Source of the DNA: Escherichia coli O157:H7
GTDB taxonomy: Bacteria > Pseudomonadota > Gammaproteobacteria > Enterobacterales > Enterobacteriaceae
NCBI RefSeq assembly: GCF_013167455.1
Contig: NZ_CP038328.1
Direction: 5' to 3' (one strand)
DNA: 64,000 nucleotides
Part shown: positions 17,701 through 20,700 of the stretch, in pieces
Position numbering within the stretch: position 1 is the stretch's first letter
Layout of the letters: every line of letters begins with the position of its first letter
Position numbers: made by a program

Positions 17701-20700
17701 CTCTGAAGAATATTACTAAAGTTAAAAAGTAATCCGATTTAAATATCGAGTCTCCTTGTTTCGACTTAAGCTGGCAATTGGATTGCCAGCTTTCTTTTAA
17801 CGCATTGAAATTACCTGAGTAAATAACGCATTCATGTCTTCAGGTTTTTATATAGCGTCTGGAGACATGGATATTTATGCAATGTAATCAACGCCAGTTG
17901 CAAAAAAATGAACCCGGATTACTTATTTAACCGCCCATAGCATCAACGCTTACGGAACTCTTTGTTCACTTTCCCACAGCACTTTTAAAACATTAAACCT
18001 GACTACGGAAAATATCAGCCATGATAATGTTTGAAATGGCTAATTTGCCATGGAGTGAAAAAAATTAGATGAAATTCAGTAGGTTGAAATAATCACTAGC
18101 AGGTAATTATTTCAATGATAGTGCGCAATTGATCTACAACACTGCGTAGCGGAGAGAGTATTAATCGGATCATAGTCACATCAAGTGACTATGATCCGGG
18201 TGACAACCGGGATAATTATTGCTGCTTAACGAACAAACTGGCGAAGCTGAACAGGCTGGCGGCGCTAAATATCAGTTCAATTCCCACCAGTGTGGAAACC
18301 AGCGTTACAGACACCATCGGCGTTGCACCAAGGAATATCCAGGCAATGACGATATCCAGCACACCAATAACGAGCTGTAGCCAGCTGCCTTTCATTGAAC
18401 GCTGACGATACCAACTCATCAGGCGAATAACCCCTGCAACACAGAACAAACCGGCAATAAATGCCGCAATGGCAAAAATGCCCAGCTCCGGTGCGCGGAT
18501 GAAGAAATAGCCGATCAATAAATAGGCGACTGCGACGAGGAAACCGGATAATACCGGCCAGAAATTATGACTGCGGTTGCTGAATAATCCAACAATAAGC
18601 GCAATGCCCGAACAGATTAATAATGCACCTACTACTGTGCTTAAAATATCGCCAGAAACGAACGGGAAACTGATACACAGCAACCCGACGATAAACAGCA
18701 GCACGGCAATAAACTGGATTGCTCTGCGATGCTTTTTCAGCATCTCCAGATCAAACTTCAAAATTGTTGCCTTATCTATATATAACATAGAACCACCCTA
18801 TAAAATTAAGAAGAAAATCCCCTGCTATCAATCTATGCCAAAAACGCGTCTAAGAATGCAGTCGATTTAATAAAAATTTCCTAATTGCAGTATCTGATGC
18901 ATCTGTAACTCATTGTATTGAAATAAAAATATCTGATTTTGATATTTTCCATCAACATGACATATACAGAAAACCAGGTTATAACCTCAGTGTCGAAATT
19001 GATTCGTGACGGCTCTTTCACTTTATAGTTGAGGATATTACGATGAAAAAAGTATTAGGCGTTATTCTTGGTGGTCTGCTTCTTCTGCCAGTTGTGAGCA
19101 ATGCAGCGGATGCGCAAAAAGCAGCTGATAACAAAAAACCGGTCAACTCCTGGACCTGTGAAGATTTCCTGGCTGTGGACGAATCCTTCCAGCCAACTGC
19201 AGTTGGTTTTGCTGAAGCGCTGAACAACAAAGATAAACCAGAAGATGCGGTTTTAGATGTTCAGGGTATTGCAACCGTAACCCCAGCTATCGTTCAGGCT
19301 TGTACTCAGGATAAACAAGCCAACTTTAAAGATAAAGTTAAAGGCGAATGGGACAAAATTAAGAAAGATATGTAATTCCGGGAATGCGTTACATCGTACT
19401 TCCTTGCATATTGAACAGGCCGGAATATCTTCTTTAAAAGCAGCTATTCCTCCTGTTCATATATAATCTCTATATTGAATGGGTTACAAAATAAATATTT
19501 CATCTCTCCGTAAAGCGTTTATTTTTATGGGCGCTGTAGCGGCTTTGTCACTGGTGAACGCACAATCTGCGCTGGCAGCCAATGAATCCGCTAAAGATAT
19601 GACCTGCCAGGAATTTATTGATCTGAATCCAAAAGCAATGACCCCGGTTGCATGGTGGATGCTGCATGAAGAAACAGTATATAAAGGTGGCGATACAGTT
19701 ACTTTAAATGAAACCGATCTCACTCAAATTCCTAAAGTGATCGAATACTGTAAGAAAAACCCGCAGAAAAATTTGTATACCTTCAAAAATCAAGCATCTA
19801 ATGACTTGCCGAATTAATGAGGTACAAGTAAAAAGGAGTGGCAAGTTGAGCCATCTTGCTGCTCCTTTTTGCATTTTTATATGACAGCAGAATTTATTAT
19901 ACGTCTTATACTCGCGGCAATTGCCTGTGGCGCTATTGGCATGGAAAGGCAAATGCGCGGCAAAGGAGCAGGGTTACGCACTCATGTATTAATTGGCATG
20001 GGAAGCGCACTGTTTATGATTGTTTCGAAATATGGTTTTGCTGACGTGCTGTCTTTAGATCACGTCGGACTGGACCCCAGCCGTATTGCTGCTCAGGTGG
20101 TGACGGGCGTCGGGTTTATCGGTGCAGGTAACATTCTCGTTCGTAACCAAAATATTGTAGGTTTGACGACGGCAGCGGATATCTGGGTGACCGCCGCCAT
20201 AGGTATGGTTATTGGCAGTGGTATGTACGAACTGGGTATTTATGGTTCAGTGATGACCTTGCTGGTGCTGGAAGTCTTCCATCAATTAACCTTCCGCCTG
20301 ATGAACAAAAATTACCATTTACAGCTGACATTAGTGAACGGTAATACGGTATCAATGCTCGACTGGTTTAAGCAGCAAAAAATAAAAACTGATTTAGTTT
20401 CGTTGCAGGAAAATGAAGATCATGAAGTGGTCGCCATTGATATCCAGCTTCATGCCACAACGTCGATAGAAGATCTGTTGCGATTATTAAAAGGTATGGC
20501 AGGGGTGAAAGGCGTTTCAATTAGCTAATCTGTATAGTTATTTATTCGCAGGAGTACCAGTGCGGTACTCCTGTTGCTTTTAATGATCGAGGACGATCAG
20601 TGGTGAATGGTTGGCAGGATCTTTAAGTACGGTAATATCCGCGCCGTAGAGCATTGTCAGCGCCTGCTGTGTCAATACGTCCTGTGGTTTACCATTTGCG

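What the first reader, a model, noticed from the sequence alone, without database searches (positions are those of the whole stretch)
18167..18197. Perfect 13-bp inverted repeat immediately downstream of hdeD
ggatcatagtcac-atcaa-gtgactatgatcc forms a perfect 13-bp stem with a 5-nt loop about 20-50 nt past the hdeD stop, at the distal edge of the long gadE regulatory region. It lacks a clean U-tract, so it may be a protein-binding palindrome or RNA-stability element rather than a simple terminator.
Basis: seen in the sequence. Interest (0 to 1): 0.25.

Follow-up and report, generated by a model that had tools for sequence, protein, structure and literature searches.

The report
hdeD mRNA 3'-end protective hairpin
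The palindrome just after the acid-resistance gene hdeD is a real, strongly conserved RNA hairpin that marks and probably protects the end of the hdeD messenger RNA after Rho-dependent termination further downstream: an ordinary member of a well-described class.

Summary
The inverted repeat is real and one pair longer than reported: 14 perfect pairs, 5-nt loop, window 18166-18198, starting 18 nt after the hdeD stop (hdeD is on the - strand). It is far beyond chance, single-copy, and present in 5412 of 5426 complete E. coli genomes. The 13-bp core is identical in at least 5388 of them, while the loop has three common alleles and the flanks differ by about 22% between phylogroups. Other Escherichia species keep the stem through compensatory changes (GGATC/GATCC to GCCTC/GAGGC; the 14th pair switches between C-G and U-A).

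Published Term-seq data for K-12 (Adams et al. 2021) place an RNA 3' end on the hdeD-sense strand 4 nt past the stem. The same study lists a bicyclomycin-sensitive Rho termination region about 110 nt further downstream, inside a C-rich, G-poor stretch. No lineage has a U-tract.

This matches the Dar and Sorek (2018) class: a stem-loop that stops 3'-5' exonucleases and sets the steady-state end of a Rho-terminated mRNA. Nothing supports a protein-binding palindrome. The Rho dependence rests on low-resolution published data and is inferred rather than shown. Interest is low; it is a new member of a known kind.

The parts
18166..18198 (-). 14-bp perfect stem with a 5-nt loop. In the hdeD 3' UTR it reads CGGAUCAUAGUCAC-UUGAU-GUGACUAUGAUCCG.
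   Evidence: Found by the repeat finder. RNA fold -24.6 kcal/mol, z = -7.4. 13-bp core identical in at least 5388 E. coli genomes. Compensatory changes in other Escherichia species.
18162..18162 (-). Position equivalent to the Term-seq RNA 3' end mapped in K-12 MG1655 at 3657621 (+). It lies 4 nt past the stem and 54 nt past the hdeD stop.
   Evidence: Adams et al. 2021, Supplementary file 1, sheet M63 0.4. The register of the printed 61-nt sequence was checked against the arrS terminator row. Coordinates were transferred through the gap-free K-12/O157 alignment.
18216..18788 (-). hdeD coding sequence (190 aa), the gene whose transcript carries the hairpin.
   Evidence: ORF list; RefSeq annotation of identical and near-identical loci.
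18000..18165 (-). C-rich, G-poor, U-tract-free stretch right after the hairpin; candidate Rho loading and termination zone. The published Rho termination region peak (K-12 3657733 +) maps to about window 18050.
   Evidence: C/G in 78-nt windows rises to 2.3-2.4 at 18112-18009, against 0.6-0.8 in most of hdeD. C 20-25 vs G 7-13 in the 100 nt after the hairpin in all 13 lineages. Adams et al. 2021, Supplementary file 2: Rho score 6.83, p = 2e-20.

Best explanation
The palindrome acts as RNA, on the hdeD-sense (window -) strand. RNA polymerase transcribing hdeD passes the stop codon and the hairpin. Because no U-tract follows, most polymerases do not terminate there. Rho loads on the untranslated, C-rich and G-poor RNA just downstream and stops transcription diffusely within the next 100-200 nt, before the gadE promoters. 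3'-5' exonucleases (PNPase and RNase II in the published model) then trim the tail back to the stable 14-bp stem. This leaves a defined 3' end 4 nt past the stem and protects hdeD mRNA from further decay. Shown: the hairpin, its conservation with covariation, the mapped 3' end at its base, and the C>G composition. Taken from published low-resolution data: bicyclomycin-sensitive termination nearby. Inferred: the order of events and the exonuclease trimming.
For: The stem is stable (-24.6 kcal/mol). It is kept in every Escherichia lineage examined (-18.7 to -24.6 kcal/mol), although the position relative to the stop shifts by 17-19 nt. Four pairs show changes on both sides; cells with double changes and the covariation score exceed all 500 shuffles and all slid controls. 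Within E. coli the stem differs at 0 of 26 positions between O157 and a B2-type allele, against 20 of 90 in the other intergenic columns. At least 5388 of 5412 genomes share the 13-bp core, while the loop has three alleles. A Term-seq 3' end lies 4 nt past the stem on the hdeD-sense strand in MG1655 grown in M63 glucose, and none lies on the other strand. A Rho termination region lies 112 nt downstream: -BCM 101 reads upstream and 28 downstream, +BCM 251 and 475, Rho score 6.83, p = 2e-20. The tail has only 1-3 U in 8 nt in all lineages, and C exceeds G downstream in all of them. These are the features Dar and Sorek 2018 describe for Rho-dependent transcript ends: a stable stem-loop, no U-rich tract, no upstream A-tract, C-over-G downstream, and PNPase/RNase II trimming.
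Against: The Rho score uses 800-nt windows. In +BCM the downstream count exceeds the upstream count, so induction of the gadE promoters inside the downstream window may inflate it. The 3' end passed the curation threshold in only one of three conditions and with a modest read count of 1150. G-U versus A-C asymmetry does not settle which strand is under selection: 92.1% of cells are paired on the sense strand and 94.5% on the antisense strand. The downstream stretch is AT-rich overall (C about 20%), which is weaker than classic rut sites. No exonuclease-mutant or rho-mutant data for this locus were available. Template-switch (quasipalindrome) mutation could produce the symmetric changes without selection on RNA.
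Confidence: 0.62

Rival explanations
1. It is a non-canonical, weak intrinsic terminator. The very stable hairpin itself dislodges RNA polymerase at the AUUAAUAC tail without Rho, alone or backed up by Rho. The mapped 3' end would then be the termination site, trimmed by a few nucleotides.
For: The hairpin is as stable as those of intrinsic terminators (-24.6 kcal/mol), and a discrete 3' end lies right after it. Dar and Sorek note that reduced-U hairpins may be inefficient intrinsic terminators backed up by Rho.
Against: There are only 3 U in the first 8 nt, and 1-3 of 8 in all other lineages, so selection keeps the stem but never a U-tract. The consensus scan does not call it on the hdeD strand. 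The 3' end is 4 nt from the stem rather than the usual 7-9 nt (established knowledge of intrinsic termination). A BCM-sensitive region lies just downstream.
Confidence: 0.2
2. It is a DNA-level element: a palindromic operator for a dimeric regulator at the distal edge of the gadE control region, or a cruciform or Dam/SeqA-related site (each arm carries a GATC).
For: It is a perfect palindrome at the edge of a densely regulated region. The central CATAGTCAC/GTGACTATG is nearly invariant in sequence across species. The wobble asymmetry does not exclude a strand-neutral, DNA-level constraint.
Against: The outer 2-3 pairs change on both arms together (GGATC/GATCC to GCCTC/GAGGC), which also removes both GATC sites in other species. 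The spacer sequence varies freely. The sequence occurs nowhere else in 5412 E. coli genomes. An unrelated hairpin occupies the same position after hdeD in Kluyvera. No paper found reports a factor bound there. An RNA 3' end maps to it.
Confidence: 0.06
3. It acts on the opposite (window +) strand, as a barrier or 3'-end hairpin for antisense transcripts that read through the ArrS terminator toward hdeD.
For: The hairpin is equally stable on the + strand (-24.2 kcal/mol). The A-C mismatch shared by E. albertii, E. whittamii and E1V33 on the sense strand is a G-U pair on the + strand. In K-12/O157 a small second hairpin with an AU-rich tail follows on the + strand.
Against: No 3' end on that strand is listed near the hairpin in any of the three Term-seq conditions. 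The small second hairpin is destroyed in B2-type alleles. Three other single-side changes (E7-1N7, and two in E69) favour the sense strand.
Confidence: 0.05

Closest known systems
3'-terminal protective stem-loops of Rho-dependent transcripts (Dar and Sorek 2018, NAR; hypothesis of Peters et al. 2012)
   Same: A stable stem-loop lies directly upstream of a precise steady-state 3' end. There is no U-rich tract and no upstream A-tract. C exceeds G downstream, and a BCM-sensitive region lies about 100 nt downstream.
   Different: Rho dependence and exonuclease trimming have not been shown for this locus at nucleotide resolution. The stem is unusually long and perfect (14 bp), and its sequence is unusually conserved.
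Canonical intrinsic (Rho-independent) terminators, such as the ArrS terminator 400 nt away at window 17768-17798 (+)
   Same: A hairpin of similar energy sits shortly after a gene, with a 3' end just past it.
   Different: There is no U-tract (3 of 8 U), the stem is only moderately GC-rich (6 of 14 pairs), and the 3' end lies 4 nt from the stem. The ArrS terminator has the expected UCUUUU tail, with its 3' end on the last U.
REP (repetitive extragenic palindromic) elements acting as mRNA 3' stabilisers
   Same: An extragenic palindrome that can block 3'-5' exonucleases downstream of a gene.
   Different: It is single-copy in every genome and does not belong to a repeated family.

Membership tests
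Protective 3' stem-loop of a Rho-terminated transcript (Dar and Sorek class) | Energetically stable stem-loop immediately upstream of the steady-state RNA 3' end | tested here: met
   -24.6 kcal/mol hairpin. A published Term-seq 3' end lies 4 nt past the stem.
Protective 3' stem-loop of a Rho-terminated transcript (Dar and Sorek class) | No U-rich tract after the stem and no A-rich tract before it | tested here: met
   The tail is AUUAAUAC and the upstream sequence is CCCGGUUGUCACC. All 13 lineages have 1-3 U in 8 nt.
Protective 3' stem-loop of a Rho-terminated transcript (Dar and Sorek class) | C-over-G enrichment (rut-like) downstream of the stem-loop | tested here: met
   C/G reaches 2.4 at 18112-18009. 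C 20-25 vs G 7-13 per 100 nt in all lineages.
Protective 3' stem-loop of a Rho-terminated transcript (Dar and Sorek class) | Read-through increases when Rho is inhibited (bicyclomycin) | tested here: inconclusive
   A published Rho termination region lies at K-12 3657733 (+), score 6.83, p = 2e-20. It was computed with 800-nt windows that include the gadE promoters, and the +BCM downstream count exceeds the upstream count.
Protective 3' stem-loop of a Rho-terminated transcript (Dar and Sorek class) | Longer 3' tails in pnp or rnb exonuclease mutants | not testable with these tools
   The supplementary tables of Dar and Sorek are not held.
Canonical intrinsic terminator | U-rich tract of 7-8 nt directly after a GC-rich stem | tested here: not met
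   3 U in 8 nt. Not called on the - strand by the consensus scan. U-poor in all lineages.
REP or other repeated palindromic element | Many copies per genome sharing a consensus | tested here: not met
   There are exactly two blastn places per genome, which are the two strands of the one locus. No other copy exists in the window at up to 3 mismatches.
Curated RNA family (Rfam 15) | Match to a covariance model | tested here: not met
   No hit on 18166-18198 at E <= 1.
Transcription-factor operator palindrome | Sequence-specific half-sites conserved independently of pairing; factor occupancy | tested here: inconclusive
   The outer half-site positions co-vary to keep pairing and no factor is reported in the papers searched. 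Occupancy data at this site were not available.

The most novel reading that the evidence does not exclude
The hairpin and the Rho-dependent zone together form a conditional insulator between GadE-activated hdeD and the gadE control region. When Rho termination weakens (acid stress, stationary phase, or sRNA/ProQ-type binding at the hairpin), hdeD transcripts would read into gadE-mdtEF and add a transcriptional positive-feedback arm to the GadE circuit. The unusually strict conservation of the stem sequence, beyond what pairing needs, would then reflect a specific RNA-binding partner.
Probability: 0.08. Interest if true: 0.45.

Novelty: new member of a known kind. Interest (0 to 1): 0.15.

Why it matters
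It gives hdeD a defined transcript end. It also explains why hdeD transcription does not normally run into the 798-bp gadE sensory region, which is useful when annotating the acid fitness island or designing gadE promoter fusions. The locus is a clean, single-copy, strongly conserved example of a U-tract-less 3' hairpin with natural compensatory variants. It could serve as a test case for the exonuclease-trimming model. It does not change what is known about termination or acid resistance.

Tried and rejected
- **Rfam:** a scan of the region gave no family on the hairpin.
- **Other copies:** none were found in the window or in 5426 E. coli genomes. This rejects REP, MITE and regulon-motif readings.
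- **Strand assignment from G-U versus A-C asymmetry:** inconclusive. Three single-side events favour the sense strand and two favour the antisense strand.
- **Dam/GATC idea:** both arms carry GATC in E. coli, but both sites are lost in E. albertii, E. whittamii, E1V33 and E69 while the stem is kept. Rejected as the conserved function.
- **CRP-like half-sites (from memory):** TCAC...GTGA is in the wrong orientation and spacing. Not pursued.
- **Further 3'-end and Rho datasets:** the Dar and Sorek supplement is not held. Ju et al. 2019 and Peters et al. 2012 are not held. The Yan et al. 2018 supplements do not mention hdeD. The EHEC Term-seq paper supplements do not mention hdeD or gadE. PMC9023263 has no supplement held.
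- **Literature on hdeD with terminator, stem-loop, palindrome or ProQ:** nothing found about this element. Lalaouna et al. 2018 deals only with the hdeD 5' UTR.

Full report
**Context.** The window is the acid fitness island of E. coli O157:H7, reversed relative to the K-12 map; a 161-nt query around the finding is 100% identical to O157:H7 chromosomes. hdeD is the - strand ORF 18216-18788. gadE ends at 16890 and starts at 17417 (-). hdeA starts at 19043 (+). The hdeD-gadE intergenic region is 798 nt.

**Observation.** The perfect complementarity extends one more pair, to 14 bp: 18166-18179 and 18185-18198, with a 5-nt loop.
- On the hdeD-sense strand it reads CGGAUCAUAGUCAC-UUGAU-GUGACUAUGAUCCG. 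It starts 18 nt after the stop codon and is followed by AUUAAUACUCUCUCC.
- There is no U-tract, and the consensus terminator scan does not call it on this strand.
- The 37-nt RNA folds at -24.6 kcal/mol (z = -7.4). The complementary strand folds at -24.2 kcal/mol.
- Perfect hairpins of at least 14 bp are expected about 0.01 times per 64 kb in Markov simulations of the window.

**Copy number and conservation within E. coli.**
- The locus is present once per genome in 5410-5412 of 5426 complete genomes, always beside hdeD and never on plasmids.
- A 45-nt query at E <= 10 gives exactly two places per genome. These are the two strands of the same palindrome, so no other copy exists.
- Exact 31-nt searches count 3931 genomes with loop UUGAU, 1305 with AUUAA and 152 with UUUAU. 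That is 5388 genomes with an identical 13-bp core and three loop alleles.
- Between O157 and a B2-type allele (E138), the two 13-nt arms differ at 0 of 26 positions, while the remaining intergenic columns differ at 20 of 90 and the loop at 3 of 5.
- Sampled one-mismatch alleles carry their change in the loop, the 14th pair or the tail.
- Between these alleles the 14th pair changes from C-G to U-A on both sides.

**Conservation beyond E. coli.** A scan of species-representative genomes with HdeD recovered E. albertii, E. whittamii, two unnamed Escherichia species, a divergent "E. coli" E69 and Kluyvera cryocrescens.
- All Escherichia lineages keep a hairpin at the homologous place, although 17-19 nt are inserted between the stop codon and the stem in the non-coli species.
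- The outer stem changes from GGAUC/GAUCC to GCCUC/GAGGC, which is two compensatory pairs. The 14th pair alternates between C-G and U-A several times. Loops differ freely (UUGAU, AUUAA, UUAAU, UUUAU, UCAUA, UUGUG, GCACA).
- Formal counting gives 4 of 15 pairs with changes on both sides and 92% of cells paired. The number of double-change cells and the covariation score exceed all 500 shuffles and every slid control.
- The number of independent events is small, about four to six.
- The wobble asymmetry does not identify the strand: 92.1% of cells pair on the sense strand and 94.5% on the antisense strand.
- In Kluyvera an unrelated perfect 11-bp hairpin (-19.1 kcal/mol), also without a U-tract, follows hdeD. 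There it lies between convergent genes.

**Experimental anchors from the literature.**
- Adams et al. 2021 (eLife, PMC7815308), Supplementary file 1, sheet M63 0.4, lists a Term-seq 3' end at MG1655 3657621 (+). It is classed "orphan", with an average read count of 1150 and the sequence CCCCGGTTGTCACCCGGATCATAGTCACTTGATGTGACTATGATCCGATTA|ATACTCTCTC.
- The register (3' end at position 51) was checked on the neighbouring arsS-type control, the arrS row, where position 51 is the last U of the terminator's UCUUUU tail.
- The RNA therefore ends 4 nt past the 14-bp stem and 54 nt past the hdeD stop, which is why the authors' 50-nt rule did not label it "primary". This corresponds to window 18162 (-).
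- No 3' end is listed on the opposite strand near the hairpin in any of the three conditions.
- Supplementary file 2 of the same paper (DirectRNA-seq with and without bicyclomycin) lists a Rho termination region at 3657733 (+), 112 nt downstream. The counts are -BCM 101 upstream and 28 downstream, +BCM 251 upstream and 475 downstream, Rho score 6.83, p = 2e-20.
- That score uses 800-nt windows. The +BCM downstream count exceeds the upstream count, so induction of the gadE promoters may contribute. The Rho evidence is suggestive, not decisive.

**Composition.** On the hdeD-sense strand the C/G ratio is 0.6-0.8 through most of hdeD, with local stretches of 1.1-1.3. It rises after the hairpin to 2.3-2.4 at 18112-18009, around the published Rho-region peak (about 18050), and then falls to 0.4. 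In all 13 lineages the 100 nt after the hairpin have C 20-25 against G 7-13, and the 8 nt after the stem contain only 1-3 U. Right after the stem sits a YC-rich run (ACUCUCUCC in E. coli; ACACCUACACCACC, ACACUCCAGC and AUACUCCCGUC in the others).

**Interpretation.** These features match, point for point, the class described by Dar and Sorek 2018 (PMC6061677). Transcripts terminated by Rho have precise steady-state 3' ends immediately after stable stem-loops that lack a U-tract and an upstream A-tract. C-over-G enrichment lies downstream. Termination occurs further on, and PNPase and RNase II trim back to the hairpin.

I conclude, with confidence about 0.6, that the palindrome is the 3'-end-defining and protective stem-loop of a Rho-terminated hdeD mRNA. 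A by-product is that GadE-activated hdeD transcription is kept out of the gadE control region.

The main rival is a weak U-less intrinsic terminator, possibly backed up by Rho (about 0.2). It is disfavoured because every lineage keeps the stem but none acquires a U-tract, and because the 3' end is only 4 nt from the stem. DNA-level readings (operator, cruciform, Dam sites) and an antisense-strand role are not excluded by the covariation alone. They lack any positive evidence and conflict with the symmetric outer-stem changes, the loss of both GATC sites in other species, the single-copy status and the mapped sense-strand 3' end.

One caveat applies to all selection arguments. Template-switch (quasipalindrome) mutation can create symmetric changes in one step. 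However, 0 of 26 stem differences against 22% flank divergence, and invariance in more than 5300 genomes, argue for purifying selection.

**Novelty.** RefSeq carries no annotation here, and no paper found discusses the hairpin. The 3' end already sits in a public table, and the mechanism class is established. This is a new member of a known kind, of low general interest.

Noticed in passing
window 17768-17798 (+), and 17764 (-): A perfect 11-bp hairpin AAGCTGGCAAT-TGG-ATTGCCAGCTT followed by TCTTTT is the ArrS antisense sRNA terminator. Adams et al. list its 3' end at K-12 3657985 (-), with very high read counts. They also list a 3' end on the opposite, gadE-sense strand at 3658019 (+), 4 nt past the same hairpin, inside the long gadE 5' UTR. 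The hairpin therefore marks RNA ends on both strands.
   Followed up: partly
window 16701-16772 (-): Rfam ES205 sRNA hit (105 bits, E = 9.5e-19) between gadE and mdtE. A Term-seq 3' end at K-12 3659081 (+) maps to window 16702, at its U-tract terminator. From memory, this is probably the gadE 3'-UTR sRNA GadF; that identification was not checked.
   Followed up: partly
window 18084-18115: A second, imperfect AU-rich inverted repeat (13 nt arms, 92% complementary, 6-nt loop) lies inside the C>G stretch. It is followed about 20 nt later, on the hdeD-sense strand, by a U7 run (18064-18058). The published Rho-region peak maps 8 nt past that run.
   Followed up: no
window 18195-18211 (+): A small CCGGG...CCCGG hairpin abutting the palindrome is flagged as terminator-like on the + strand. 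It exists in K-12/O157-type alleles but is destroyed in B2-type alleles (CCCTATTTCCACCT), so it is not conserved.
   Followed up: yes
window 18168-18171 and 18193-18196: Each arm of the palindrome contains a GATC (Dam) site, 25 bp apart. Both are lost in E. albertii, E. whittamii, E1V33 and E69, where the stem is GCCUC/GAGGC.
   Followed up: yes
window 18150-18162 (-) and homologous positions in L008-L012: A short motif UAAYACUC (UCAUACUC in E. albertii) directly after the stem is conserved across Escherichia species despite diverged surroundings. Kluyvera has GUACUCC after its unrelated hairpin. It may be part of the Rho loading site.
   Followed up: no
L013 2582-2607: In Kluyvera cryocrescens, hdeD (57% identical protein) is followed by an unrelated perfect 11-bp hairpin without a U-tract. 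It sits between hdeD and a convergent 176-aa ORF (2624-3154, -), so the gene order differs from E. coli.
   Followed up: partly
L011 (NZ_JAUFQN010000010.1): An 8.6-kb contig filed under Flavobacterium paronense CECT 8460 carries an hdeD locus whose HdeD protein match is 98% identical to the query. Its downstream region is near-identical to K-12/O157, including the hairpin, apart from single-base indels. This is almost certainly E. coli contamination of that assembly.
   Followed up: no
window 30238-30266, 35228-35254, 35459-35491, 35918-35948, 41231-41262: Other perfect hairpins of 11-14 bp in the window. The two at about 35.2-35.5 kb have A/T-run flanks typical of bidirectional intrinsic terminators, and they resemble the agrB terminator sequence printed in Adams et al. 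The others were not examined.
   Followed up: no
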